The notes beneath the pieces are model-generated. The model did not search any database, was not told the DNA's origin, and saw nothing but the letters and a program-made list of their open reading frames with translations. From contig JBBTSY010000009.1 of NCBI GenBank assembly GCA_038064515.1, positions 2,155-66,154 on the forward strand: a stretch of DNA of 64,000 nucleotides, in the 5' to 3' direction. The position numbers and the translations under genes are program-made. Source of the DNA: Patescibacteria group bacterium. GTDB lineage: Bacteria; Patescibacteriota; Minisyncoccia; 2-02-FULL-40-12; GWA2-44-9. Of this stretch, positions 20,807 to 54,413 are shown piece by piece. Positions within the stretch are counted from its first letter, which is position 1; each line of letters begins with the position of its first letter.

Positions 20807-20955
20807 TGAATCCTCACACTCACCTGACGAGCTGTTCCTGGTGGCGAGGATGGTCATGGATAATAGCATAATATGTCGTGTAATAGTTTGCTGCGCTGTA
20901 AGCACTTCGCTTAGCGGAACGCGAGCCATTACTCGTCAGCGAGTGTAAGGATGAA
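20806..20955 (+). repeat. TIR-140 intergenic element, copy 1 (ATGAA-[TCCTCACACTCACCTGACGAG ... CTCGTCAGCGAGTGTAAGG]-ATGAA)
   Basis: 19-21 bp terminal inverted repeats. Conserved internal blocks CTGTTCCTGGTG and GGAACGCGAGCCATTACT. Overlaps the mreB stop codon and directly abuts the GT4 start codon. Confidence 0.7.
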
Positions 20956-25537: not shown

Positions 25538-26555
25538 ACCTCTCGTCACAATTAATTTGGTCGTCAATAACGGAGAAAAATATCTTCGTTATTGTCTGGA
25601 TCACGTCAGAAGGCAAACGTACGAGAATTTGGAGGTCAATGTCTTTGATAACGCTTCAATTGATTCGACACGTGATATTGTTCAAAGAGAATATCCTGAA
25701 TTTAACCTGATCGCACACCCCCAAAACTTGGGCATGTGGCCGGGTCAGGAGGAGGCGCTCAAATCAAGTCATGGCTTTTATATTGTCGGGCTCTCTGTCG
25801 ACGTAATGATGCATCCGCAATTTGTGAAAAACGCTATCCGGGTGTGCGAAGCTGATCCTTTGATCGGCGCTCTGCAAGCTAAAATACTGCGCTATGATTT
25901 CCAACAACTGGCAGACGGATCATATGACGCTTCGAAAATCATTGATACATGCGGATTTCGCCTTGCTCGATCGCGTCGGGTGATGAATGTTGGTCACGGA
26001 GCCTTTGATTATGGCCAGCATGACCAAGCAACTGAAATATTTGCCGCAGAAGGAGCGGTGCCATTTTTCAAAAAAGAAGCCCTGGAAGCCATCCGCATCG
26101 ACGGCGCTATTGTCGATCACGACTATTTCTGGTACGGAGACGACCTAGACCTTACTTGGCGAATGCAGCTATTTGGATGGAAGCAGTGGTATGATCCCGA
26201 CGTCATTGCATATCATGACCGCTCGACGACAAAAGGACACAGCCGGAGCATGATGGATTATTTCCGCAGAGTTAAGACACGACAGCAAATACCGATCAGA
26301 AAACGCATTCTCGACTGGTCGAACGTGCGGTTTACAATTATTAAAAATGATTATATAATAAACATCTTGAAGGACGCGCCCTACATCGCGATTAGGGAGA
26401 TTCAGGTTTTAGGTTTCGCGCTGCTGTTTGAGCCCCAGATTTTTCTAGAAATTCCTCGCTTTCTCGGGCTTCTTCCGGCGATGCTCCGCAAGCGTCGGCT
26501 CGTGATGGCGAAAGCGAAAAAATCTCCTCAAGAAATGCACACATGGTTCATCTAA
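25530..26555 (+). CDS. glycosyltransferase family 2
   Basis: VTINLVVNNGEKYL...VFDNASIDST GT2 N-terminal motif. Confidence 0.75.
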   Translation: MNKPLVTINLVVNNGEKYLRYCLDHVRRQTYENLEVNVFDNASIDSTRDIVQREYPEFNLIAHPQNLGMWPGQEEALKSSHGFYIVGLSVDVMMHPQFVKNAIRVCEADPLIGALQAKILRYDFQQLADGSYDASKIIDTCGFRLARSRRVMNVGHGAFDYGQHDQATEIFAAEGAVPFFKKEALEAIRIDGAIVDHDYFWYGDDLDLTWRMQLFGWKQWYDPDVIAYHDRSTTKGHSRSMMDYFRRVKTRQQIPIRKRILDWSNVRFTIIKNDYIINILKDAPYIAIREIQVLGFALLFEPQIFLEIPRFLGLLPAMLRKRRLVMAKAKKSPQEMHTWFI

Positions 26556-26571
26556 TTATCTTATTATCGGC

Positions 26572-26723
26572 ATGAATCCTCACACTCACTGAAGAGCTGT
26601 TCCTGGTGATGGCGAGGGTTTATATGAATATATCCATAATACACTGATTGTATGACTTGCTTGTCCGCAATACCAAGTAAGGCGGAACGCGAGCCATTAC
26701 TCTTCAGTGAGTGTGAGGATGAA
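26572..26723 (+). repeat. TIR-140 intergenic element, copy 2 (ATGAA-[TCCTCACACTCACTGAAGAG ... CTCTTCAGTGAGTGTGAGG]-ATGAA)
   Basis: Perfect 19-20 bp TIR with compensatory A/T changes relative to copies 1 and 3. Abuts the LCP start codon. Confidence 0.7.
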
Positions 26724-27744
26724 TTTACAGCCAGACTTTAATGAAAAGCCTCGCCTCCGTTTTAACCGCAAAGGGGTAATTTTGAGTTCAATCTTCATTG
26801 TTATGTTTCTACTTGGTGCCGGCTATACTGCGTATAATTGGTCTGATAGCCTATTAGTGGATGCTGGTAAAGCCAACTGGAAGGAGAATCTTTTTCCGTT
26901 TGGCGGCGATAAGCCGGTGGAAACCGATTACGTGATGCCGAAAGCCGAAGCCAACCGATATGATATTCTTATTCTTGGCGTTCGAGGAAAAGATGACCCG
27001 GACGGCGGAAATTTAACTGATACCATCATGCTGTTTAGCCTCGATAAGACAACGGGCCGATCAACACTCGTTTCTATCCCGCGCGATCTCTATGTGCGGA
27101 TCAGTAAAGACAAGAAGGAAAAAATCAATGCCGTATATGCCTATCTTGGCTTAAGAAGCACCGAAAAACTCGTTTCTCAAATCACCGGCGTGTATGTCGA
27201 TAATAGTATCGTTTTTGATTTCTCTTCATTCAAGAAAATCATCGATGATCTCGGAGGGATCGATATCGTTCTCGATAAACCATTTGAAGAAACAACGCAG
27301 TGGGGATATGTATTTAAGCTTCCAACGGGCCTCAACCACTTAGACGGGGAAAACGCTTTATATTATGTCCGATCCCGCTACTCCTCAAATGACTTTGATC
27401 GCGCTCGCCGACAGCAGCAAGTTATGTTTGCCATCAAAAATAAGGTGATTCAGATGGACTTTCTTTCAAGCCCTGTTCGCAGTTTGAGCCTCCTAAACAC
27501 GCTCAAGAAAAATATCAATACCGACATTAATCTCCTTGATATTAAAGGTTTGATTGAACTTGCTCAACAGGTAAACGTCGATAAAGTAAATCGCCATATT
27601 CTTTCCACGGCTGATTATCTCTATGAAAGTGTTGGTGAGGCGGGTGCTTATGTGCTTTTACCGCAGGGAGATAATTTCAATCGTCTTAAGACTTTTTTCC
27701 AGGATTTTCTGAAACCCGTCTCTGCCGTCTCAAAGAAATCATGA
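26719..27744 (+). CDS. LytR-CpsA-Psr (LCP) family cell-wall polymer ligase
   Basis: TM anchor plus ILILGVRGKDDPDGGNLTDTIMLFSL...SIPRDLYV LCP signature. ATG at 26719 is preferred over the GTG at 26707, which lies inside the repeat. Confidence 0.8.
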   Translation: MNLQPDFNEKPRLRFNRKGVILSSIFIVMFLLGAGYTAYNWSDSLLVDAGKANWKENLFPFGGDKPVETDYVMPKAEANRYDILILGVRGKDDPDGGNLTDTIMLFSLDKTTGRSTLVSIPRDLYVRISKDKKEKINAVYAYLGLRSTEKLVSQITGVYVDNSIVFDFSSFKKIIDDLGGIDIVLDKPFEETTQWGYVFKLPTGLNHLDGENALYYVRSRYSSNDFDRARRQQQVMFAIKNKVIQMDFLSSPVRSLSLLNTLKKNINTDINLLDIKGLIELAQQVNVDKVNRHILSTADYLYESVGEAGAYVLLPQGDNFNRLKTFFQDFLKPVSAVSKKS

Positions 27745-28592
27745 TGCTCTCTGTCATCATCCTAAGCTACCGTAACCCCGCCCTTTTGCGTCTCTGCTTG
27801 AAATCGCTTGTCGCGGCACTTCCGAAAGACTTCAACTATGAAATAGTCGTCGTTGATAATGCCACTCGGTCCGAGACCCGGAATGTGGTCTGTGACGAAT
27901 TCAAAGAAGCCTTTCGTTCTATTAAGTTCGTACCGATCAAGAAAAATTCCGGCTATACGCGAGGAATTAATGAAGGTATTAGTGCCGCTCAAGGCGAATA
28001 TTTCCTAGCGCTAAATCAGGATATCGTGGTGTTAAAAGGCGCTGTTGAAAAGCTTCTCTTGTATTTTAAAGATCATCTTGAAATAGGATTAATCGGTCCG
28101 GAGCTCCTTAATTTTAACGGCACACACCAAGACTCTTATTTTCGCTTCTACACACCCGTAACAATCTTTTATCGACGCATCGGATATCTGCCATTTGCTC
28201 GAAGAATACTAGACCCGTTTCTTTTAAGGGAAACAGATCCCTCAAAAGTCCAAAAGCCCGACTGGGTTTCGGGAGCGGCATTTATGACTTCTCGGGAGGC
28301 AATCAAAAAAGTCGGCCTGCTCGACGAAAAACTTTTCCATTATTTCAGTGACGTTGACTGGGCACGAAGATTTTGGGAGAATGGATATCAAGTTGTTTAT
28401 TATCCAGAAGCAAAGTTTTACCATTACCTGGGACGAAGTTCGAAGGGCAAACTGTTGATCTTCGATATATTTTTCAATCAAACAACCCGTTGGCATATCA
28501 AGGATTTCTGGAGATATTTCAGAAAATACGGATTCCTAACGCGGCATTCTGCGAGGAACATCTCACAGCCATCACATGCAACCACTTACTAG
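27741..28592 (+). CDS. glycosyltransferase family 2
   Basis: LSVIILSYRNPALL...VVVDNATRSET GT2 motif. Confidence 0.8.
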   Translation: MMLSVIILSYRNPALLRLCLKSLVAALPKDFNYEIVVVDNATRSETRNVVCDEFKEAFRSIKFVPIKKNSGYTRGINEGISAAQGEYFLALNQDIVVLKGAVEKLLLYFKDHLEIGLIGPELLNFNGTHQDSYFRFYTPVTIFYRRIGYLPFARRILDPFLLRETDPSKVQKPDWVSGAAFMTSREAIKKVGLLDEKLFHYFSDVDWARRFWENGYQVVYYPEAKFYHYLGRSSKGKLLIFDIFFNQTTRWHIKDFWRYFRKYGFLTRHSARNISQPSHATTY

Positions 28593-29811
28593 AAAAATTT
28601 TCATTCTTACTGTGCTTTTATCGCTCGGCGCAGGATTTATTTCCGGTTATTCTTATACGCGCTACCAAGAAGGGAACACGCTTAAAACAAGTCTTCGAGA
28701 ACTCATCAATAAGGAATCGGGTCAGCCGGACAATGTTGATTTTTCTCTATTTTGGGATGTTTGGGACACACTCCAGGCAAAATATGTTAATAATGACACC
28801 ATTGAAACTCAAAAGCTCATCTACGGGGCGATCTCGGGTATGGTTAACAGTGTCGGCGATCCATATACCGTTTTCTTCGAACCATCCACAAGTAAAAAAT
28901 TCCAAGAAGAAATTTCCGGCGCTTTTAGCGGCGTGGGCATGGAAATCGGCAAACGAAATAATTTGCTCACGGTTATTTCTCCGATTAAAGACAGTCCCGC
29001 GTTTCGCGCAGGCATCAAGGCGGGAGATCGCATTCTAGAAATTAACACTAGGGTCACAACTGACATGACGGTAGAAGAAGCCGTAAATCTCATTCGCGGC
29101 AACAAGGGTACAAAAGTGAAAATGATGTTGTCACCAAGCAATAGCAATGAGACCCGGGAAGTTGAAATTATCCGAGATACCATTAAGATTCCCGCAGTCC
29201 AATGGACCCTCCGCGATGGTAATGTTGCTCACATCGAAATTTTTGTCTTTAATTCCAACGTTGATGGCGAATTCAAAAAAGCAGTTCAGGAAATTATTAA
29301 ATCAAAAGCTAATCGCATCGTACTCGATCTTCGCAACAATCCCGGAGGTCTCCTTGATTCAGCGGTAAATCTTGCCGGATACTTTCTGGATAAGGGCAGT
29401 GTCGTGACAATCGAGAATTTCGGCGACGGAACCAAGAACGAATTCAAGGCTTCCGGCAATGCCGAGTTGAAAAATTACCCGACTGTCGTCTTGATTAACG
29501 GCGGTTCGGCCTCGGCATCGGAAATCCTCGCCGGAGCGCTCCACGACAACCGCAGTATCAAACTTATTGGCGAAACGAGCTTCGGAAAAGGTTCAGTGCA
29601 GGAACTGGCGAAATATGTTGACGGATCTTCATTAAAGGTTACCATAGCCAAGTGGTTAACTCCTTCCGGTATCTCAATTTCGGAAAAGGGCATTAACGCA
29701 GATATAGAAATTAAATTTGATCCTAAAGAAGTCGAATCAGGCGCCATCATCCAAGGGGAGCAGGGAAAAGACCCGCAACTTGATAAAGCGCTTAAAGTCG
29801 TCAAACAGTAA
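28576..29811 (+). CDS. ctpA: carboxyl-terminal processing (S41, tail-specific) protease with PDZ domain
   Basis: PDZ region. S41 catalytic region VVLINGGSASASEILAGAL...GETSFGKGSVQ. Confidence 0.85.
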   Translation: MQPLTRKIFILTVLLSLGAGFISGYSYTRYQEGNTLKTSLRELINKESGQPDNVDFSLFWDVWDTLQAKYVNNDTIETQKLIYGAISGMVNSVGDPYTVFFEPSTSKKFQEEISGAFSGVGMEIGKRNNLLTVISPIKDSPAFRAGIKAGDRILEINTRVTTDMTVEEAVNLIRGNKGTKVKMMLSPSNSNETREVEIIRDTIKIPAVQWTLRDGNVAHIEIFVFNSNVDGEFKKAVQEIIKSKANRIVLDLRNNPGGLLDSAVNLAGYFLDKGSVVTIENFGDGTKNEFKASGNAELKNYPTVVLINGGSASASEILAGALHDNRSIKLIGETSFGKGSVQELAKYVDGSSLKVTIAKWLTPSGISISEKGINADIEIKFDPKEVESGAIIQGEQGKDPQLDKALKVVKQ

Positions 29812-29815
29812 TATT

Positions 29816-30262
29816 ATGCGCGTAATCTTATTACAAAATATCAAAGGAGTCGGACAAATTGGCGATGTAAAGGACGTAAATGACGGATATGGCCGCAATT
29901 TTCTTCTTGCCCGCAATCTCGCCAAGCCGGCCACTACTACGGCTTTGAAGCAGGCGGAGGAGCTTCGCTCAAAGCGCGAAGTAATCATGAAGGAGCAAAA
30001 AAACAAGGCTCGCGAAGTCGCTGATAGGATTAAGGATGTAACGCTTGAACTCAAGGAAAAAACCAACGAGAAGGGCAAACTATTTGCCGCCGTCGGTAAG
30101 AAAGAAATTTCTCACAAATTTAAGGAAAAGACCGGAGTTCATCTGGAAGATGATATGATTCAGCTCGATGAGCATATTAAGACTGTCGGCGAGCATACCG
30201 TTCAGCTTGAGCTGGCTCCGGAAGTTATTGTGCCGCTCAAAATAATCATTACCGAGGCATAG
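29816..30262 (+). CDS. rplI: 50S ribosomal protein L9
   Basis: MRVILLQNIKGVGQIGDVKDVNDGYGRNFL. The ATG at 29816 is preferred over the upstream in-frame ORF start. Confidence 0.85.
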   Translation: MRVILLQNIKGVGQIGDVKDVNDGYGRNFLLARNLAKPATTTALKQAEELRSKREVIMKEQKNKAREVADRIKDVTLELKEKTNEKGKLFAAVGKKEISHKFKEKTGVHLEDDMIQLDEHIKTVGEHTVQLELAPEVIVPLKIIITEA

Positions 30263-30277
30263 ATGAGCTCTATAAAA

Positions 30278-30306
30278 CCCCTCCGCCATGGCGGAGGGGT
30301 TTTATA
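30278..30306. terminator. bidirectional intrinsic terminator (CCCCTCCGCC/GGCGGAGGGG) between the convergent rplI and rpmA
   Basis: 10-bp GC stem flanked by an A-run and a T-run. Confidence 0.65.
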
Positions 30307-30317
30307 GTCGATAAACG

Positions 30318-30593
30318 CTAGACGATGATATTTACTACTTTTACGACTCTTCGAGAACCGTCGTAATTCTTTTTTTTGGTCGTGGTGAATTTCACTTTAC
30401 CATCCATAACTGCATAGATAGTATAATCAGAACCCTGTCGGACGCCTTCGCCAGCTAGAAATTTACTTCCGCGCTGTCGGATGATAATATTGCCGGTTTT
30501 GGCAACTTGACCATCGTGGAGTTTCACGCCGAGATATTTTGGTTGTGAATCTCGTCCTAACTGTGTTGTACCTACGGCTTTTGTATGTGCCAT
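30318..30593 (-). CDS. rpmA: 50S ribosomal protein L27
   Basis: MAHTKAVGTTQLGRDSQPKYLGVK... Confidence 0.9.
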   Translation of the reverse strand: MAHTKAVGTTQLGRDSQPKYLGVKLHDGQVAKTGNIIIRQRGSKFLAGEGVRQGSDYTIYAVMDGKVKFTTTKKKNYDGSRRVVKVVNIIV

Positions 30594-30662
30594 TCTACGT
30601 GGAAATCCTACAGGGCTAGTGTTACAATAACTACCGTAGAATCCAAATTAAAATACTCGGAT

Positions 30663-31052
30663 ATGATAGCAAGAATTACTGCTTTCGTCAAATCTTTCTG
30701 GCACGACATGTTTGTTCTTGGGTGCATCGTCCTCATCGCGATAATCAGTTACAATTTAGGCCGCATTAATGCGCTTGAGAAGTCCCCGCTAAAAGTAGGG
30801 GAGGGGGCTAATATTTATAACGCCGCCACCGCTCCTATCCAAGACTCTTCCGGAAATATCACGGCAAGAACTCCAGTACCCCAAATTCCGCGTGATTCTA
30901 GGGTGGTGGTCTCCAAGAGCTCGACATCGAAAAAATACCATTATAGCTGGTGCTCGGGAGTCAAGACGATCTTACCCGCCAATCAGATCTGGTTTGAAAA
31001 TGAGGCCACTGCCCAGAAAGCAGGCTACACTCTTGCCGGCAACTGCCAATAA
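30663..31052 (+). CDS. membrane-anchored protein with a C-terminal YHxxxC...EATAQKAGYTLAGNC putative metal-binding domain
   Basis: TM (FVLGCIVLIAIISY). C-terminal pattern resembling small metal-binding domains. Start chosen at MIARITAF. Confidence 0.4.
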   Translation: MIARITAFVKSFWHDMFVLGCIVLIAIISYNLGRINALEKSPLKVGEGANIYNAATAPIQDSSGNITARTPVPQIPRDSRVVVSKSSTSKKYHYSWCSGVKTILPANQIWFENEATAQKAGYTLAGNCQ

Positions 31053-31079
31053 AAATAAGACGCTTCTATTCTGACGTAG

Positions 31080-31817
31080 TTATAAGAATCTTTTCAACCA
31101 GAAATCGTGTTCCCATTCCCAGAGAGATTTAGCCGCAAAAAAAGCTTTGATATTTGAATCATATCCAGCAAGCTCTTTAAATTCATATTCTCCTTTAATT
31201 GGCGCCCAGTTATGCTCGCAAGGGTAGCGATCATTTTTGATTTTTACGTTGCCACCCTTTTGACGCATCGTAGCTTTGCAACGAATGCATTTTTGATTCT
31301 GATCCAGACGCAGAACCCAAGAGGTGAGGGGAGGCATATTCGAATCTTCGCTTAATGCTTGCATGTACGCCGCAGTCTGTATGCCGTAATCGCGATATAT
31401 TGCTTGGGATGTCTTGATATCTAATACGCCAACCACGCCGTTTACCTCGGCAAGAATATCAATCGTGCCCGCATAACGATGTTTTCGGCTGATAATCCGT
31501 TCTTCGATTTTCAGCGGTATAACAAGATTACTCCCGTAGAAATCTAAAAACGCATCAATGCTCGGCTGGATTGCCAATGGAATATCAATTGGTTCCTTCT
31601 TTAGTATCGCCTCTACGGCATTATGAACGGCCGAACCTTCTTCGGCGGAGCGGTTCAGGATGGCTTCGCCAGCCTTAAAATTAGGCATACCGGCATAATA
31701 TGCATAGAGCGCAGGCTTTGATTTTATAGAGAGGATCGAAGTGACGCGGGGAAACCATTCTCCTTCGATATCATAACCGTTTTCATTTCGAAATTCTTTA
31801 GCAGTGCGATAGAACAT
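31080..31817 (-). CDS. PD-(D/E)xK RecB-family nuclease with a C-terminal zinc ribbon
   Basis: Motifs WFPRVTSIL, GTIDILAE, LDIKTS, QTAAYMQAL (QxxxY), plus CxxC...C..H. Confidence 0.6.
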   Translation of the reverse strand: MFYRTAKEFRNENGYDIEGEWFPRVTSILSIKSKPALYAYYAGMPNFKAGEAILNRSAEEGSAVHNAVEAILKKEPIDIPLAIQPSIDAFLDFYGSNLVIPLKIEERIISRKHRYAGTIDILAEVNGVVGVLDIKTSQAIYRDYGIQTAAYMQALSEDSNMPPLTSWVLRLDQNQKCIRCKATMRQKGGNVKIKNDRYPCEHNWAPIKGEYEFKELAGYDSNIKAFFAAKSLWEWEHDFWLKRFL

Positions 31818-31826
31818 TAAAGGCGG

Positions 31827-32498
31827 TTATTTAATATTAATGTATTTATTCCAGGCTTCGTAGAGTTTTTTGGTGGCGACCAGATCGCCAAAACAATATG
31901 TGGCAATCTTGAGATATTCCTTGTCATTAAAGAGCTGGGCCACTTCGTTGCCACTGATACCGTCAGATTTAGGGCTTTTAATGCCGAAGGCTTGGCACCA
32001 CATATGAAGGCTCATAGTTCGCCGCACAGCGCCGAAAAAGCCCAACCGATCATAGAGGTCAATATGTTCGTCGCCATATCGATAAGGCATGAGATTTTTA
32101 GTTGGCTTCACTTTCAGAATAGCTGAACGAACCATAATATACGGACAATCAAACGAGCGGCCGTTGAAGGTAACGAACTGATCGTAGTGCTGGATGATTT
32201 CCCAAAATTTTTCCAAAATTTCCTTCTCGGTAACCGGAAAATACTGGACTCCTTCCTCTTCAGATTGTTCTAGGTTTGCTTCGGGCGCTTGAAAATAAAC
32301 CGCACCCTTATCAGTGTCAGGATTTAAAATGCCAATCGCCACAATTTGGCCCGTAAGAGGGGAGAAGCTTAAATTGTTTTTTACTTCTTCGGCTTCCTCC
32401 GGACTGCGCGCGTTCTTTACGAGATACTCCTGCGAGATTTCATCAAGAGCATTAAAATCAACGCCCACGGTTTCAATATCAAAAATGAGTCGAGGCAT
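31827..32498 (-). CDS. 3'-5' exonuclease related to the PolB exonuclease domain (COG3298 / RNase H-like)
   Basis: Exo I FDIETVG, Exo III YCFGDLVAT. Confidence 0.65.
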   Translation of the reverse strand: MPRLIFDIETVGVDFNALDEISQEYLVKNARSPEEAEEVKNNLSFSPLTGQIVAIGILNPDTDKGAVYFQAPEANLEQSEEEGVQYFPVTEKEILEKFWEIIQHYDQFVTFNGRSFDCPYIMVRSAILKVKPTKNLMPYRYGDEHIDLYDRLGFFGAVRRTMSLHMWCQAFGIKSPKSDGISGNEVAQLFNDKEYLKIATYCFGDLVATKKLYEAWNKYINIK

Positions 32499-34150: not shown

Positions 34151-35380
34151 TTAGAGATAGTCCGAAGGATTTAGCGAACCATCGAAATAATTAAAATAGA
34201 GCTGTCCCGCTTTAGTATAAGTAAAGAAGTCTTGATAGAGGCTAAGGTGAACATGTGAACCCGTAGAATTGCCTGTAGAGCCTTCATATCCAACGGCTTG
34301 TCCCTGGGTCACTTTTGTACCGACGCGAAGAGGCGCAAACGCGCTCATGTGGCCATAGACACTTACTAGTCCAAAACTGTCATGTTGAACGGCTACCCAG
34401 TTCCCGAACCCTGAATTGAAACCGTTAGCAATAATCTCTCCGGAGCCGATAACCTTAATCGGGGTTCCATAACCTCCGGCGATATCAATCCCATTATGCG
34501 GAGATCCCCCGTATGCTCCTCGTTTTGCATAGGTCGTCATACCGTAGCCCTGCGTCAAACGATAGGAGTCCTCCGGATATGTAAAGAGCTTTGTTCCTCG
34601 AGGAGGAACTCCCGTAGCTTTTACACGTATGATAAATAATCCGCCCGCAACAGCATCAGATTCCAGCTGTTGCATCTCGAGAAAAAGTTGACTGCGCTTT
34701 TTTTCTGCGGCAGTAAGCATTTTCTGATATTCTGCTTCTTGGCCCTTAGTCTGAGCTAGGATGGTGTCCTTTTGAGATTTTACCCCGGTTAAAGAGGAGC
34801 GCTTTGCGCTCTGTTCCTGATTCAGAGAAATAAGCTCCCCTTTCTTATCTTCTAGTCCAACTTTAGAAATCTCCAGCTGCTGCTTTTGATTGCGAAGATC
34901 GCCAATTAATTCCAGAAGTTTATCATTCACGTTTGCCAGTTGTTGAGCCTCGCTCAAAAACGTCGAAAGATTTTCATTCTTCATGAGTGTAGCCATTAAG
35001 TTCTCGTTATCGCGCTGATTCAAAAAAATAAGCAGTTCACCGACTGTCTCCCGCCGACGATCAATAGTCTGTTGAGTTTCAAAAATATTTCCCTCCATGT
35101 CGGTAATTTCTACTTTTGTTTTACTGATTTTTGTAGACGTCAAAATAATCTGCTGTTCCAGGCCCTGGATCTCTTTCTTGATAATCGCGATGTCTCGCTG
35201 AAGCGTTTGGGCTTTTGCGCGTTCTTCAGCGATACTTCCTTTGAATTGCTTAGCTTGCTCTTCAAGCACTTCAATTTGTTTAAGTAATTCAGCAATGCGT
35301 GCTTCGTTGGCGGCAAATGCTGGCACGACAAAATTAAAGGTAGCAATACTGATGAGCATGGTGCTAATAAATCGTTTCAT
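34151..35380 (-). CDS. M23/LytM-family peptidoglycan endopeptidase with signal peptide and coiled-coil
   Basis: C-terminal HNGIDIAGGYGTPI...GSTGNSTGSHVHLS M23 motifs. Start MKRFISTMLISIA at 35380, directly abutting repeat copy 3. Confidence 0.8.
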   Translation of the reverse strand: MKRFISTMLISIATFNFVVPAFAANEARIAELLKQIEVLEEQAKQFKGSIAEERAKAQTLQRDIAIIKKEIQGLEQQIILTSTKISKTKVEITDMEGNIFETQQTIDRRRETVGELLIFLNQRDNENLMATLMKNENLSTFLSEAQQLANVNDKLLELIGDLRNQKQQLEISKVGLEDKKGELISLNQEQSAKRSSLTGVKSQKDTILAQTKGQEAEYQKMLTAAEKKRSQLFLEMQQLESDAVAGGLFIIRVKATGVPPRGTKLFTYPEDSYRLTQGYGMTTYAKRGAYGGSPHNGIDIAGGYGTPIKVIGSGEIIANGFNSGFGNWVAVQHDSFGLVSVYGHMSAFAPLRVGTKVTQGQAVGYEGSTGNSTGSHVHLSLYQDFFTYTKAGQLYFNYFDGSLNPSDYL

Positions 35381-35524
35381 CCTCACACTCACTGACGAGA
35401 TATGGCTCGCTCCGCACAGCGTAGTGCTAGGGAGAAGCTTTTTCATATTCGACAGATAATTACTGCCATACTCAATATCATCGCCATTTCTAGGAACAAC
35501 TCGTCTGTGAGTGTGAGGATTCAT
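35376..35524 (-). repeat. TIR-140 intergenic element, copy 3, reverse orientation, abutting the M23 peptidase start and overlapping the gltX stop
   Basis: Read on the minus strand: ATGAA-[TCCTCACACTCACAGACGAG ... CTCGTCAGTGAGTGTGAGG]-ATGAA. Confidence 0.7.
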
Positions 35525-36876
35525 GAAAGTTTATTGATTGCTGACCGTACGCGCGAAAGCACTTCTTCTTTATCTAACGCTGATATAATATCGACTGGAT
35601 CGGGCGACATTTTCTCTCCCGTCAGCGCAACACGAAGCGGCCAATACACCAGTCCCCTATTTCCTGCCTGGCCGGCTGAAAGTTTGTCCAATTCTTTACG
35701 CAATTCATCTTTGTTGTTTAATTCCAATTTTTCCAAAAGCGCGTGCGATGCTTCTAAAGATTTTTTAACGTCCTCGCGGGAAGAACTTTTCCATATCAAT
35801 AATTCTGCCTCGTACGAAGGCGCTTCCCAGAAATAGTGAAATGCATCCATATCGGTCAGTTTCTCAAGCCGTTCGGTCATGAGCGGGATTGCGGCTTTCA
35901 AAACGTTGTGTCCGATGAGCTTTTCGAAATCCGAGGGCGCAAGCTGGCGCACATACTGCGCATTAATCCAGTTCAGCTTCTGTATATTAAATATCGCTCC
36001 GCTCTTATGCACTTTTGCTAATTCAAATTCTTTTGCCATCTCTTCTTTGCTTAAAATATCCTTGCTGTACGTGTGGCCTAAAAAACCCATGAAGTTCACC
36101 AGTGCTTCGGGCAGATAATCTTTAGCGTAGTCCATAATATCAAGCGCGCCGTGGCGCTTTGAGAGTTTTGATTTGTCCGAACCTAAAATTAATGGCAGAT
36201 GTGCAAAGATGGGAGGCGTTTTTCCGAGTGCTTGATAAATAAGCATCTGCTTTGGCGTATTAGAAATATGATCTTCGCCCCGAATGACATGCGTTATCGC
36301 CATATCGATATCATCAATGACAACGGCAAAATTATATAGTGGAGTTTGTAAATCCTTAGCGAGACTCACATCGCTTATTACGCGCTGATTAAATTCAATC
36401 GTTCCTCGAATCGCATCATCAAAAGAAAGCTTCTTCTCCTCGGTCTGATCAACGACCAGCCGGATAATCTCGCCTGTTTCTTTCCCCTTCTCGCTGTTCT
36501 TGTGGTCGCACAGGTGGCGAGGCGCTTCTTTGCGCTCCATTTGGCCTTTCTTCTCCGCATCAAGCTCCTTGACCGTATGGTGGCACCAAAACGCCTTCCC
36601 GGATGCGAGAAGCTCTTTCAAATACTGCGTATACACAGTAAGACGCTGTGATTGACGAACAATTTCACCATCCCACTGAATGCCCAGCCATCGCAGGCTA
36701 TTAATAATGCTCTCTTCGTATTTTTTGTCAGAGCGTTCCAGGTCAGTGTCTTCAATCCGCAGGATGAGCTGACCGCCGTGCTTCTTGGCAAAAAGCCAAT
36801 TAAAAAGCGCCGTTCGTGCGTTACCAAAGTGTAAATTACCCGTAGGCGACGGTGCTATGCGAACTTTTACTGGCAT
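35521..36876 (-). CDS. gltX: glutamyl-tRNA synthetase
   Basis: HIGH (PSPTGNLHFGNARTAL) and KMSKS (KLSKRHG) motifs. Confidence 0.9.
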   Translation of the reverse strand: MPVKVRIAPSPTGNLHFGNARTALFNWLFAKKHGGQLILRIEDTDLERSDKKYEESIINSLRWLGIQWDGEIVRQSQRLTVYTQYLKELLASGKAFWCHHTVKELDAEKKGQMERKEAPRHLCDHKNSEKGKETGEIIRLVVDQTEEKKLSFDDAIRGTIEFNQRVISDVSLAKDLQTPLYNFAVVIDDIDMAITHVIRGEDHISNTPKQMLIYQALGKTPPIFAHLPLILGSDKSKLSKRHGALDIMDYAKDYLPEALVNFMGFLGHTYSKDILSKEEMAKEFELAKVHKSGAIFNIQKLNWINAQYVRQLAPSDFEKLIGHNVLKAAIPLMTERLEKLTDMDAFHYFWEAPSYEAELLIWKSSSREDVKKSLEASHALLEKLELNNKDELRKELDKLSAGQAGNRGLVYWPLRVALTGEKMSPDPVDIISALDKEEVLSRVRSAINKLS

Positions 36877-43179: not shown

Positions 43180-43725
43180 TCAGCGCGAGCGTTTTTCTTT
43201 CATAAGAGGCAGGATGGCTAGGGAAATCAACGACCATACAAAAAGAGCCAGTGGCGTACCGATAAAAGGGTAAATTACGCCCAGGCTTTTCTCGGAGGTT
43301 GCCTCGGGAATAAATGAAGCCATAACCGCTCCGATAAACCCAATCTGGAAAAGACTAATAAGCAGTACTTTTGTCAAAGCCATATCACCCATTGAAAGAC
43401 GCCTAAGCGAAGATCGGTAGAGAATGAAAAACGCACTGATGTAAAGAGCAAAGAATAATCCGACTTTAATAAAGTATGGTTCGAAACTTTCCGGAACTGC
43501 TTTTGTAAGCGTTTCTAAAAATGGGAAAAGATTCGTCAACGTGAGCGCAACATAGATAGCCAGGAGCGACATGAGAGCTCGCGTTTTGCCGATACTCATG
43601 CCGTATAGAAATACGGCAACAATGATAAGCATTACAAATAATTCTCTGGGTCCGGTGAGTCCGCTAAGATTAGCGGTAATGCTTGAAAGATTAGAAAATT
43701 TTAAAATGTCTCTAACGGGATCCAT
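43180..43725 (-). CDS. polytopic membrane protein (CvpA-like)
   Basis: Four or five TM helices. No catalytic motif. Confidence 0.45.
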   Translation of the reverse strand: MDPVRDILKFSNLSSITANLSGLTGPRELFVMLIIVAVFLYGMSIGKTRALMSLLAIYVALTLTNLFPFLETLTKAVPESFEPYFIKVGLFFALYISAFFILYRSSLRRLSMGDMALTKVLLISLFQIGFIGAVMASFIPEATSEKSLGVIYPFIGTPLALFVWSLISLAILPLMKEKRSR

Positions 43726-53709: not shown

Positions 53710-54305
53710 TGAATCCTCGTTTTAAATATCTCGTCCGTTTATTCCAAAAACTCCCCGGCGTCGGCCAACGGCAGGGTGCGCGTTTTGTTTTATCATTATT
53801 AAATCGTGACGAACAGGAATTGCAAGAGCTTGGAGATGCTATCGCTACGCTCAAACAATCAGTCCGCTTCTGCAAAGAGTGCTTTAACGTAGCCGAGGAC
53901 GAGATCTGTCTTATTTGCGCTAATCCGCGGCGCGATACTTCCAAAATGCTTGTTGTCGAAAAGATAACCGATTTGGACTCTATTGAAAGAACTGGTCTTT
54001 ACCGAGGCCTATATCATGTGTTGGGAGGCAGTATTAACCCCGTGGAGGGTATGACGCCGGAACACCTTAAAATTCGAGAATTAAAAAGTCGCGTCCAGAA
54101 GCTTTCCAAAAATAAGGAAGAGTTCGAGCTTATTCTGGCTACTGGTACCGCCACCTCGGGGGAAACAACCGCACTTTATATTCGGGAACTTTTTCATGAT
54201 CAGCCGATTATACTTACCCGCTTGGGCCGAGGACTCTCGGCCGGTTCAAATCTCGAATATGCTGACGAAATCACATTAAAGCACGCGTTAGAACAAAGAA
54301 AATGA
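53709..54305 (+). CDS. recR: recombination protein RecR
   Basis: HhH, C4 zinc finger (CKECFNVAEDEICLIC) and Toprim. Confidence 0.9.
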   Translation: MNPRFKYLVRLFQKLPGVGQRQGARFVLSLLNRDEQELQELGDAIATLKQSVRFCKECFNVAEDEICLICANPRRDTSKMLVVEKITDLDSIERTGLYRGLYHVLGGSINPVEGMTPEHLKIRELKSRVQKLSKNKEEFELILATGTATSGETTALYIRELFHDQPIILTRLGRGLSAGSNLEYADEITLKHALEQRK

Positions 54306-54413
54306 AAAGGTAGAACCGATGTGTAACTAATGCTCGTCCCGAACGAAGTGCGGGACTGACGAAATCACATTAAAGCACGCGTTAGAACAAAGAAAATAAA
54401 AAGGTAGAATTAC
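54257..54413 (+). repeat. ~52-nt direct duplication of the recR 3' end (GACGAAATCACATTAAAGCACGCGTTAGAACAAAGAAAAT(G/A)AAAAGGTAGAA), separated by a 40-nt spacer containing the hairpin GTCCCGaacgaagtgCGGGAC
   Basis: Copies at 54257-54317 and 54358-54410 with one mismatch. Confidence 0.7.

What the first reader, a model, noticed from the sequence alone, without database searches (positions are those of the whole stretch)
35376..35524. TIR-140 copy 3 is inverted but keeps the same polarity relative to its downstream gene
On the minus strand the element reads exactly like copies 1 and 2 and ends ...GAGTGTGAGG-ATG AAA CGA (MKRFISTMLI, the M23 peptidase signal peptide). Orientation therefore tracks the downstream gene, not the chromosome. 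This favours a function in expression (promoter/leader) over a random repeat. It also redefines the M23 peptidase start at 35380, against the much longer ORF-track call that begins at 35524.
Basis: seen in the sequence. Interest (0 to 1): 0.55.

Follow-up and report, generated by a model that had tools for sequence, protein, structure and literature searches.

The report
Mobile mini-repeat parked on start codons
The 140-base inverted-repeat element in front of the M23 peptidase gene is a small mobile DNA element (a MITE) of a groundwater Patescibacteria lineage. It lands almost always exactly on gene start codons, in one orientation, and rebuilds the ATG as it inserts.

Summary
**Observation: confirmed.** Window 35380-35519 (minus strand) is a third copy of a roughly 140-nt element. 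It has 20-nt terminal inverted repeats (TCCTCACACTCACWGAMGAG) and reads in the same sense towards its downstream gene as copies 1 and 2.

**What it is.** It is a non-autonomous transposon (MITE), not a conserved promoter or leader.
- Every copy is flanked by a 4-bp target-site duplication of the form T-N-N-A.
- Seven related contigs have the uninterrupted gltX/M23 junction (ATGA or TAATG).
- A copy 100% identical to copy 2 sits at an unrelated gene, rpmE.

**How copy 3 sits.** It split the gltX stop/M23 start overlap. The left TGAA keeps the gltX stop. The element's terminal A plus the right TGAA rebuilds the M23 ATG at 35380.

**Which start is right.** Homologues of 403-420 aa all begin with MK(K/R) plus a signal peptide, so 35380 is the ancestral start. 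The ATG at 35524 is the duplicated one.

**What is unusual.**
- Six of nine independent insertions lie exactly on A|TGRA of start codons, all in the same polarity.
- The host lacks Shine-Dalgarno sites and seems to use leaderless or coupled starts, so the left ATG keeps the native initiation context.

**Unresolved.** The cause of the polarity, and how the downstream genes are translated. No transposase partner was found.

The parts
35380..35519 (-). MITE copy 3, 140 nt, from terminal T (35519) to terminal A (35380). The terminal A is also the A of the M23 ATG.
   Evidence: The site is empty in relatives.
35500..35519 (-). Left (5') terminal inverted repeat TCCTCACACTCACAGACGAG. It has one A opposite A against the right arm, which removes the in-frame TGA present in the consensus arm.
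35380..35399 (-). Right (3') terminal inverted repeat CTCGTCAGTGAGTGTGAGGA. It pairs with the left arm in a roughly 20-bp stem.
   Evidence: RNA fold -57.4 kcal/mol, z = -5.2.
35520..35523 (-). Left copy of the 4-bp target-site duplication TGAA. It contains the gltX stop codon TGA (35523-35521). With A35524 it forms the duplicated ATG that heads the 'long ORF'.
   Evidence: Single-copy ATGAA/ATGAG in L016, L017, L148, L151.
35376..35379 (-). Right copy of the target-site duplication TGAA. With the element's last base A35380 it rebuilds ATG AAA CGA, the start of the M23 peptidase.
34151..35380 (-). M23 peptidase gene, 409 aa, starting MKRFISTMLISIATFNFVVPAFA|ANE (signal-peptide-like).
35381..35524 (-). 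48 element-derived codons (MNPHTHRRVVPRNGDD...SVSVR), open and in frame with M23. This is the N-terminal extension of the 457-aa 'long ORF'; in the other copies it is only a short upstream ORF.
35521..36876 (-). gltX (glutamyl-tRNA synthetase), the upstream gene. Its stop lies in the left duplication.
20811..20951 (+). MITE copy 1 (141 nt) between the mreB-like gene (stop TAA 20804-20806) and a glycosyltransferase gene (ATG 20951). TGAA duplications at 20807-20810 and 20952-20955.
26577..26719 (+). MITE copy 2 (143 nt) in front of the LytR-CpsA-Psr gene (ATG 26719). TGAA duplications at 26573-26576 and 26720-26723. 100% identical to a copy at rpmE on another contig.
   Evidence: Empty site in L016.

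Best explanation
**What it is.** Window 35380-35519 is one insertion of a roughly 140-bp non-autonomous transposon (MITE) family found in a Yanofskybacteria-like Patescibacteria lineage from groundwater.

**Shown.**
- The element has 20-nt terminal inverted repeats.
- It is flanked by a 4-bp direct duplication of the target (T-N-N-A).
- It is absent from the same site in related genomes.
- It has moved recently: identical copies lie at two unrelated genes.
- Copy 3 landed in the ATGA stop/start overlap of gltX and the M23 peptidase gene. The staggered cut duplicated TGAA. The left copy preserves the gltX stop. The element's last base A plus the right copy rebuilds the peptidase ATG at 35380. 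Neither reading frame is damaged.
- The 'long ORF' from 35524 begins at the duplicated ATG and reads through the element.
- The family is strongly concentrated on exactly this register of start codons (A|TGRA), and always in one polarity.

**Inferred.**
- Mobilisation is in trans by a DDE-type transposase that binds the inverted repeats and makes a 4-bp staggered cut. That transposase was not found.
- The element is transcribed with its host gene and folds into a roughly 20-bp stem that abuts the rebuilt ATG.
- The host lacks Shine-Dalgarno sites and appears to start translation at leaderless 5' ends or by stop-start coupling. Ribosomes should therefore load at the left, duplicated ATG.
- From there they translate a short upstream ORF into the 5' arm (in copy 3, straight into M23). 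This would melt the stem and give access to the rebuilt ATG.
For: **Terminal repeats and copies.**

**Target-site duplications.** The flanking 4-mers are identical in 9 of 9 events and they differ between sites.
- TGAA x4: copies 1, 2, 3 and rpmE in L043.
- TGGA x2: L104 and L093.
- TCAA: L024.
- TTTA: a 26-nt derivative in L093.
- TTCA: a 65-nt variant in L146.
- Sources.

**Empty sites.**
- gltX/M23 junction: L016 reads TCGTAATGAAAAAG, L017 CTTTCATGAGAAAA, L148 ACTACATGAAGCGC, L151 AAACTATGAAACGA.
- The gene tables show the same overlap in L018, L019, L149, L150 and L152.
- GT2/LCP junction in L016: CCCCATGAACTTACAACC.
- L147 is the empty site for the L093 gene.

**Recent movement.** Copy 2 and the rpmE copy are identical over 152 of 152 nt.

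**Start-codon concentration.**
- 6 of 9 events lie exactly on start codons.
- The window holds 23 ATGNA starts against 577 intergenic TNNA sites, giving P(>=6/9) = 2e-7.
- If the target is taken as ATGRA, there are 18 starts, 27 intergenic sites and 2 sites that straddle a gene end, giving P(6/6) = 0.003.

**Polarity.** 6 of 6 in the same sense, two-sided p about 0.03.

**True M23 start.**

**Host translation signals.**
- A Shine-Dalgarno-like 4-mer is present in only 11 of 61 genes.
- TANNNT hexamers pile up 6-9 nt upstream of the ATG in 11 of 31 promoter-proximal genes.

**Stable fold.** -55 to -63 kcal/mol, z from -3.2 to -6.5.

**Upstream ORFs.**
Against: - No autonomous element or transposase with these ends was found. 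There is none among the Pfam calls for about 75 kb around the window, nor in L043 and L024.
- The genome-collection scan gave only chance hits.
- Only nine insertion events were available, from two or three organisms.
- The translation model (upstream ORF melts the stem) is untested.
- That model does not explain the polarity. The inverted repeats are nearly symmetric, so the 20 nt before the ATG would be the same in either orientation.
- In copy 2 and the rpmE copy the upstream ORF stops after 6 codons (MNPHTH*).
Confidence: 0.85

Rival explanations
1. It is a conserved cis-regulatory leader or promoter module shared by a regulon. The repeat would be maintained because it controls expression of cell-envelope genes such as the glycosyltransferase, LCP and M23 peptidase.
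For: - Same polarity towards the downstream gene in 6 of 6 start-codon copies.
- Three window targets are envelope-related.
- Strong, significant fold.
- An SD-like GAGG lies just before the ATG.
Against: - The element is absent from the same junctions in all relatives examined.
- It is flanked by variable 4-bp duplications.
- An identical copy sits at ribosomal protein L31, and others at a DUF5671 membrane protein, at a TPR protein, and at the stop codon of a convergent M15 peptidase gene.
- No sense-strand sigma-70-like promoter was found, and no Rfam match.
- Only the ends are conserved. The centre is 61-83% identical between copies, which is the MITE pattern rather than the riboswitch pattern.
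- GAGG is 1 nt from the ATG, and the host does not use Shine-Dalgarno sites.
Confidence: 0.07
2. The fixed polarity reflects the direction of DNA replication rather than the gene. It could arise by strand-biased insertion, as seen for single-strand transposons of the IS200/IS605 type or Tn7-TnsE. It only appears to track genes because genes and replication flip together.
For: - Cumulative GC skew peaks at about 28-30 kb.
- Copies 1 and 2 (+) and copy 3 (-) therefore all have their sense strand on the G-rich, presumed leading, strand.
- The skew stays negative over + strand genes at 37.6-43.2 kb, so it is not just a gene-strand effect.
Against: - The element has long terminal inverted repeats and true, site-matched 4-bp duplications. 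Both are absent from IS200/IS605-type elements.
- In L043 the rpmE copy is on the minus strand although the contig's plus strand has positive skew (+0.03 overall, +0.027 locally). This evidence is weak because the contig is short.
- Replication bias would not explain the exact start-codon register.
Confidence: 0.12
3. The transposase has no start-codon targeting and no intrinsic polarity. It inserts at any TNNA site. In a compact genome only insertions that duplicate a start or stop codon survive, and the 6 of 6 polarity is sampling luck.
For: - Coding density is 87% and many genes overlap.
- The T-N-N-A skeleton is palindromic, as expected for a symmetric transpososome.
- Non-start insertions exist: L024 at a stop codon, and the L093 and L146 derivatives in spacers.
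- The polarity p-value is only about 0.03.
Against: - 577 intergenic TNNA sites compete with 23 suitable start codons in the window, yet 6 of 9 events are on start codons.
- For purifying selection alone to give this, nearly all intergenic sites would have to be lethal.
- The two most recent events (identical copies at LCP and rpmE) are both on start codons in the same polarity.
Confidence: 0.2
4. In this genome the 457-aa long ORF (start 35524) is the form actually translated. Ribosomes coupled to the gltX stop would start at the left ATG and read through 48 element codons into M23. The signal peptide would then act as an internal signal-anchor that is cleaved after AFA.
For: - The left ATG keeps the ancestral ATGA overlap with the gltX stop.
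- The host has no Shine-Dalgarno usage.
- The spacing is 144 nt = 48 codons with no stop.
- The rebuilt ATG is buried next to a 20-bp stem.
- The extension is hydrophilic and net positive, compatible with staying cytoplasmic.
Against: - Being open and in frame has about a 3-5% chance per copy, and only 1 of 6 start-codon copies is open, so it may be luck.
- No homologue carries an extension.
- The other five host genes must be expressed without read-through, so a route to the rebuilt ATG must exist.
Confidence: 0.25

Closest known systems
Bacterial MITEs in general (for example Nezha of cyanobacteria, MITEAba12, RUP of pneumococcus)
   Same: - Size of about 100-200 bp.
- Terminal inverted repeats and flanking target-site duplication.
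- No transposase gene.
- Very stable predicted hairpin.
- Filled versus empty sites in related genomes.
- These are the criteria listed in PMC3184786, and all are met here.
   Different: - No cognate insertion sequence is known or was found.
- The host is a Patescibacteria (CPR) lineage, for which the paper search found no MITE description.
- The element inserts on the start codon itself, in one polarity.
Correia elements (CREE/NEMIS) of Neisseria and ERIC/IRU elements of enterobacteria
   Same: - Elements of about 100-150 bp with long inverted ends.
- They sit between co-transcribed genes and close to starts.
- They are transcribed into long hairpins that can change mRNA processing and expression, sometimes depending on orientation (own knowledge).
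   Different: - Those duplicate TA; this one duplicates T-N-N-A (4 bp).
- The end sequences are unrelated.
- Correia elements carry promoter boxes and an IHF site. No promoter was detected here.
- They are not locked onto the ATG.
Neisseria REP2 and Borrelia upstream inverted-repeat sequences
   Same: Repeats located immediately upstream of genes that end at, or include, the ATG start codon (PMC3184786, section 12).
   Different: - REP2 brings its own promoter, ribosome binding site and ATG, and is not flanked by duplications.
- Here the ATG is host sequence duplicated by insertion, plus one base from the element.
- No promoter or usable ribosome binding site is evident.
Rickettsia palindromic elements (RPE) and other repeats fused in frame to genes
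   Same: In copy 3 the element is open and in frame, so it could add 48 residues to a protein without destroying it.
   Different: - RPEs lie inside coding regions as a rule.
- Here only 1 of 6 copies is open.
- The insertion point is the start codon, not the gene interior.
IS1380 / piggyBac-like cut-and-paste elements (4-5-bp duplication, ends beginning CC; piggyBac TTAA)
   Same: - A 4-bp duplication with T...A at its outer positions.
- Ends that read (T/C)CC...GG(A/G).
- Resemblance recalled from memory only.
   Different: - No transposase was found.
- End sequences were not compared with any IS database.
- Membership is untested.
IS200/IS605-derived palindromic elements (PATEs) and REP/RAYT systems
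   Same: - Small, hairpin-forming and orientation-biased.
- They insert next to a specific 4-5-nt target.
   Different: - Those have no terminal inverted repeats and make no duplication.
- Here both are present, and the right-hand 4-mer co-varies with the left-hand target at every site.

Membership tests
MITE (miniature inverted-repeat transposable element) | Terminal inverted repeats | tested here: met
   - 20-nt arms TCCTCACACTCACWGAMGAG / CTCKTCWGTGAGTGTGAGGA in every full copy.
- Symmetric changes occur in both arms: copy 2 has A:T at position 17, and L024 has a terminal C:G.
MITE (miniature inverted-repeat transposable element) | Flanking target-site duplication that differs between sites | tested here: met
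   9 of 9 events have identical flanking 4-mers: TGAA x4, TGGA x2, TCAA, TTTA, TTCA.
MITE (miniature inverted-repeat transposable element) | Small size and no transposase gene | tested here: met
   - 140-161 nt, with derivatives of 26 and 65 nt.
- Only short, non-conserved ORFs.
MITE (miniature inverted-repeat transposable element) | Filled versus empty sites in related genomes (evidence of mobility) | tested here: met
   - Empty gltX/M23 and GT2/LCP junctions in L016, L017, L148 and L151.
- L147 is empty for the L093 site.
- Identical copies lie at two loci.
MITE (miniature inverted-repeat transposable element) | A cognate autonomous insertion sequence with the same ends | tested here: inconclusive
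   - No transposase domain among called genes of L011, L142 and L138 or the ORFs of L043 and L024.
- Collection scans gave only chance single-end hits.
IS200/IS605-type palindromic element (PATE) or REP | No terminal inverted repeats and no target duplication; fixed right-end cleavage motif independent of the target | tested here: not met
   Long inverted repeats are present, and the right-hand 4-mer always equals the left-hand target across five different 4-mers.
Correia element / ERIC | TA duplication and the family's own end sequences | tested here: not met
   - The duplication is 4 bp T-N-N-A.
- No Rfam or plasmid-collection similarity.
- The ends differ from the Correia and ERIC consensus as recalled from own knowledge.
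Known structured RNA families (riboswitches, leaders, hammerhead ribozymes; the arm contains CUGANGAG) | Match to a curated covariance model | tested here: not met
   No Rfam hit on any of the six copies at gathering score, or at E<=1 (copy 3) or E<=5 (the other five copies); gathering-score scans were.
IS1380/piggyBac-like superfamily derivative | Transposase of that family recognising these ends; 4-5-bp duplication; CC ends | not testable with these tools
   Only the duplication length and the CC/GG ends agree, and that is from memory. No transposase and no IS database are available.

The most novel reading that the evidence does not exclude
The family may be a start-codon-specific mobile element. 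Its transposition machinery, or selection acting on what the element does to the mRNA, would place it precisely between the A and the TG of start codons of leaderless or translationally coupled genes, in a gene-defined polarity. There it would work as a portable leader. The duplicated ATG would capture the native initiation signal, and a short upstream ORF would unzip the 20-bp stem to hand ribosomes on to the rebuilt ATG. That would be a transposon adapted to a Shine-Dalgarno-free, leaderless translation system in CPR bacteria.
Probability: 0.3. Interest if true: 0.75.

Novelty: new variant of a known kind. Interest (0 to 1): 0.5.

Why it matters
**Annotation.**
- Three different starts have been called for this one gene: 457 aa in ENA and Logan, 431 aa by NCBI, and 409 aa by homology.
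- The same error will recur at every copy.

**Biology.**
- Mobile elements are thought to be rare in the tiny, densely packed genomes of CPR/Patescibacteria.
- This family survives there by using the one kind of site where a 4-bp duplication repairs both neighbouring genes.
- If the start-codon preference and fixed polarity hold genome-wide, the family would be a natural experiment on how translation starts in bacteria without Shine-Dalgarno sites: leaderless starts, stop-start coupling and re-initiation.
- It would also be an example of a transposon with a functional-site target rather than a plain sequence target.

Tried and rejected
- **Genome-collection scan.** The scan for the end sequence gave 10 single hits in unrelated taxa, about what chance predicts. 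The host genome is not among the species representatives.
- **Metagenome scan.** Only L024, L043, L102, L104 and L093 were real; the rest were single-end chance hits, confirmed by BLAST and nhmmer.
- **Viral-contig scan.** Two chance hits.
- **Element-encoded peptides.** The alignment search found no candidates. The 49-aa peptide against 1.8 billion representatives returned only repeat-protein noise. No further copies could be found through mis-called N-termini.
- **Internal promoter idea.** No sense-strand sigma-70-like site in any window copy, and there is no TANNNT hexamer at the right distance from the rebuilt ATG.
- **Shine-Dalgarno idea.** GAGG lies 1 nt from the ATG, and the host shows a Shine-Dalgarno-like 4-mer in only 11 of 61 genes.
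- **Hammerhead idea.** The arm contains CUGANGAG, but Rfam gives nothing.
- **Conserved small peptide idea.** MxPHTHRRVxPxDGxD recurs, but the differences between copies are not mainly synonymous, the similarity ends with the conserved DNA, and copy 1 is frameshifted.
- **Possible remnants.** ATGAATCCT at recR (53709) and ATGGATCCC at 43725 are ordinary gene starts.
- **Window extension.** Extending the window by about 10 kb found no further copies.
- **Covariation.** Only two compensated pairs, both inside the inverted repeats, so there is no independent support for a functional RNA fold.
Full report
**1. The observation**

- Read on the minus strand, 35524-35376 is ATGAA | TCCTCACACTCACAGACGAG ... 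CTCGTCAGTGAGTGTGAGGA | TGAA, followed by ACG ATT.
- The 19-nt end sequence has five matches in the window at up to 3 mismatches. No match occurred in any of 100 shuffles. The sixth end, on the left of copy 1, has a 1-nt insertion.
- The repeat finder pairs the ends of the 35.4-kb copy with those of the 26.6-kb copy as inverted matches, and pairs the 20.9-kb and 26.6-kb copies as direct matches.
- The three copies are 20811-20951 (+), 26577-26719 (+) and 35380-35519 (-). They align over their whole length with sharp borders, well conserved ends and a diverged centre.
- A profile of the copies scores each at 112-134 bits in one orientation and 14-28 bits in the other, so 'polarity' is well defined.
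- Each copy ends directly at the ATG of a gene on the same strand: a GT4-type glycosyltransferase, a LytR-CpsA-Psr protein and the M23 peptidase.

**2. What it is**

*Host organism.*
- The organism is a Patescibacteria, with Yanofskybacteria-like relatives. The contigs come from Hainich groundwater wells.

*Empty sites in relatives.*
- The closest syntenic relative, L016 (M23 81% identical), and more distant ones (L017, L148, L151 and their duplicates, 62-64% identical) have the same gene order but no element.
- Their gltX/M23 junctions read TCGTAATGAAAAAG, CTTTCATGAGAAAA, ACTACATGAAGCGC and AAACTATGAAACGA. Stop and start overlap or abut, and ATGAA/ATGAG occurs once.
- The GT2/LCP junction of L016 reads CCCCATGAACTTACAACC where the window has ATGAA-element-TGAA-TTTACAGCC.
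- The element is therefore an insertion, and the sequence TGAA on both sides is a duplication of the target.

*More copies from the metagenome scan.*
- L104 has a copy flanked by TGGA/TGGA on the ATG of a DUF5671-type membrane protein.
- L093/L146, from another species, has a copy flanked by TGGA/TGGA on the ATG of a TPR protein. Its homologue in L147 has the uninterrupted start.
- L024 has a copy flanked by TCAA/TCAA, where the duplication contains the stop codon of a convergent M15 peptidase gene.
- L043/L102 have a copy flanked by TGAA/TGAA on the ATG of ribosomal protein L31. It is 152/152 identical to window copy 2.

*Two derivatives.*
- A 26-nt unit consisting of the inverted repeats only (L093:1868-1893), flanked by TTTA/TTTA and followed by a T-run.
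- A 65-nt variant (L146:3453-3517), flanked by TTCA/TTCA.

*Conclusion on identity.*
- That makes nine events and nine matched 4-mers of the form T-N-N-A.
- With the terminal inverted repeats, the small size, the absence of a transposase gene, the stable fold and the filled/empty sites, every sequence-level criterion of a MITE is met.
- Those criteria are as listed, for example, in PMC3184786.
- The outermost base pair of the repeat is T:A in most copies and C:G in L024. Copy 2 has a symmetric C:G to A:T change. The two ends therefore co-evolve.
- Nothing in Rfam matches any copy.

**3. Anatomy of copy 3 and the start of the M23 gene**

- Before insertion the site was ...CTTTC ATGAA ACGATT..., with the gltX stop (TGA) overlapping the M23 ATG, as in L017, L148 and L151.
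- After insertion the left TGAA (35523-35520) still provides the gltX stop.
- A35524 plus TG gives a duplicated ATG that now reads into the element.
- The element's last base, A35380, plus the right TGAA rebuilds ATG AAA CGA.
- The best 120 M23 homologues listed are about 403-470 aa (mostly 405-431). The nine whose sequences were examined start MK(K/R)/MS followed by a hydrophobic stretch and an A-x-A site.
- The window protein starts MKRFISTMLISIATFNFVVPAFA|ANE. Mean hydropathy is about 1.7-1.8 over the h-region, while the 48 element-derived residues are hydrophilic.
- So 35380 is the ancestral, homology-supported start. The 457-aa call (ENA, Logan) and the 431-aa NCBI call (P0001, starting inside the element) are by-products of the insertion.

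**4. What is unusual**

*Start-codon concentration.*
- Six of the nine events, and six of the seven full-length copies, lie in exactly the same register on a start codon (A|TGRA).
- In the window there are 23 genes starting ATGNA against 577 fully intergenic TNNA sites, so P(>=6 of 9) is 2e-7.
- Even if the target is assumed to be ATGRA, there are 18 start sites, 27 intergenic sites and 2 sites that straddle a gene end, so P(6 of 6) is 0.003.

*Polarity.*
- All six are in the same polarity (two-sided p about 0.03).
- The two youngest insertions, the identical copies at LCP and rpmE, both obey both rules.

*Host translation signals.*
- Only 11 of 61 genes have any Shine-Dalgarno-like 4-mer.
- TANNNT hexamers pile up 6-9 nt upstream of the ATG in 11 of 31 genes that have an upstream spacer. 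This is the signature of leaderless mRNAs (established knowledge: the -10 box ends about 7 nt before the transcription start).
- Many other genes overlap their predecessor's stop.
- The targets fit this pattern. L093 has TACAAT-7 nt-ATG, its homologue L147 has TAAAAT-7 nt-ATG, and L043 has TACAGT-5 nt-ATG. Copies 1 and 3 sit at stop/start junctions.
- The left, duplicated ATG therefore inherits the native initiation signal.

**5. How it most likely works**

*Shown.*
- Insertion with a 4-bp duplication, preservation of both flanking reading frames, recent mobility, and start-codon concentration with one polarity.

*Inferred.*
- A trans-acting cut-and-paste (DDE-type) transposase binds the 20-nt ends and makes a 4-bp stagger at T-N-N-A.
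- The element is co-transcribed and forms a roughly 20-bp stem whose 3' arm ends at the rebuilt ATG.
- Ribosomes start at the left ATG and translate a short ORF into the 5' arm:
  - MNPHTH* in copy 2 and the rpmE copy.
  - 21-22 codons in copy 1, L104 and L093.
  - 48 codons fused to M23 in copy 3.
- This opens the stem and exposes the rebuilt ATG.
- In four of the six start-codon copies the in-frame TGA of the consensus arm has been removed, by a T-to-A change (copy 3, L104, L093) or a 1-nt insertion (copy 1). The stop-codon copy L024 keeps it. This is suggestive but rests on two independent events at most.

*Limits of this model.*
- I give this translation model about 25%.
- It does not explain the polarity, because the arms are nearly symmetric.

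**6. Rivals**

- **Conserved leader or promoter.** This is contradicted by the empty sites, the duplications, the unrelated target genes, and the absence of promoter or Rfam matches.
- **Replication-directed polarity.** It cannot be excluded within the window, because cumulative GC skew peaks at about 28-30 kb, between copies 2 and 3. However, the rpmE copy lies on the strand opposite to the weak skew of its contig, and the element has none of the hallmarks of single-strand transposons.
- **Pure purifying selection plus luck.** This would require almost all 577 intergenic sites to be forbidden.
- **The long ORF as the expressed form in copy 3.** This remains possible, at about 25%.

**7. Comparison with known systems, and novelty**

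- It works like, and qualifies as, a bacterial MITE.
- Functionally the nearest cases are Correia and ERIC elements (co-transcribed hairpins near gene starts) and Neisseria REP2 (a repeat ending in an ATG). The end sequences, the 4-bp T-N-N-A duplication and the lock onto the start codon all differ.
- The duplication length and the CC...GG ends recall IS1380/piggyBac-type elements, but that is memory, not a test.
- No transposase was found.
- The paper search found no description of MITEs in Patescibacteria.
- I rate it a new variant of a known kind.

**8. Verdict**

- The finding is real.
- Interest is 0.5. It is limited by the small number of copies and by the unknown transposase and unknown expression consequences.

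Noticed in passing
window 26000-32000: Cumulative GC skew rises over 1-28 kb and falls over 30-64 kb, with its maximum at about 28-30 kb. The skew stays negative across + strand genes at 37.6-43.2 kb. This looks like a replication terminus (or another strand switch) inside the window.
   Followed up: partly
window, all gene starts: The genome has almost no Shine-Dalgarno motifs (11 of 61 genes have any 4-mer). A TANNNT hexamer lies 6-9 nt before the ATG in 11 of 31 genes with an upstream spacer. This suggests that leaderless mRNAs and stop-start coupling are the normal ways to initiate translation.
   Followed up: partly
L093:1864-1897 (same as L146:9868-9900): A 26-nt derivative made only of the two repeat ends (TCCCACACTCA-TGCA-TGAGTGTGGGA) is flanked by TTTA/TTTA and followed by a T-run. 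It sits where the homologous locus L147 has an ordinary intrinsic terminator, so a collapsed MITE may serve as a terminator.
   Followed up: partly
L146:3449-3521: A 65-nt short relative of the family (ends CCCCACACTCAGTT/AACTGAGTGTGGGG) is flanked by TTCA/TTCA, inside an 800-nt spacer.
   Followed up: no
L043:11109-11260 and L102:4279-4430: A copy 100% identical to window copy 2 lies on the start codon of ribosomal protein L31 (rpmE), in contigs from two wells (H41, H51). This is evidence of very recent transposition.
   Followed up: yes
L024:4405-4430 and L024:3976-4347: The L024 copy carries an extra 21-nt GC-rich palindrome (CCTGCCTGCCGGCAGGCAGG) inside the element. Upstream lies a 370-nt GC-rich stretch with overlapping spurious ORFs and no Rfam match, possibly an unrecognised RNA gene.
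   Followed up: no
window 54262-54409: Two 54-nt direct repeats, 98% identical and 94 nt apart, span the 3' end of recR and the spacer after it.
   Followed up: no
window 35446 (P0001): The NCBI annotation of this gene (431 aa, MKKLLPSTT...) starts at an ATG inside the element. That is a third, different start call for the same gene.
   Followed up: yes
L093:870-1040: Sub-threshold Rfam hits to terminator-rich leader models occur on both strands (Thr_leader 33.6 bits against a gathering score of 55). They suggest a long palindromic or terminator-like structure unrelated to the element.
   Followed up: no
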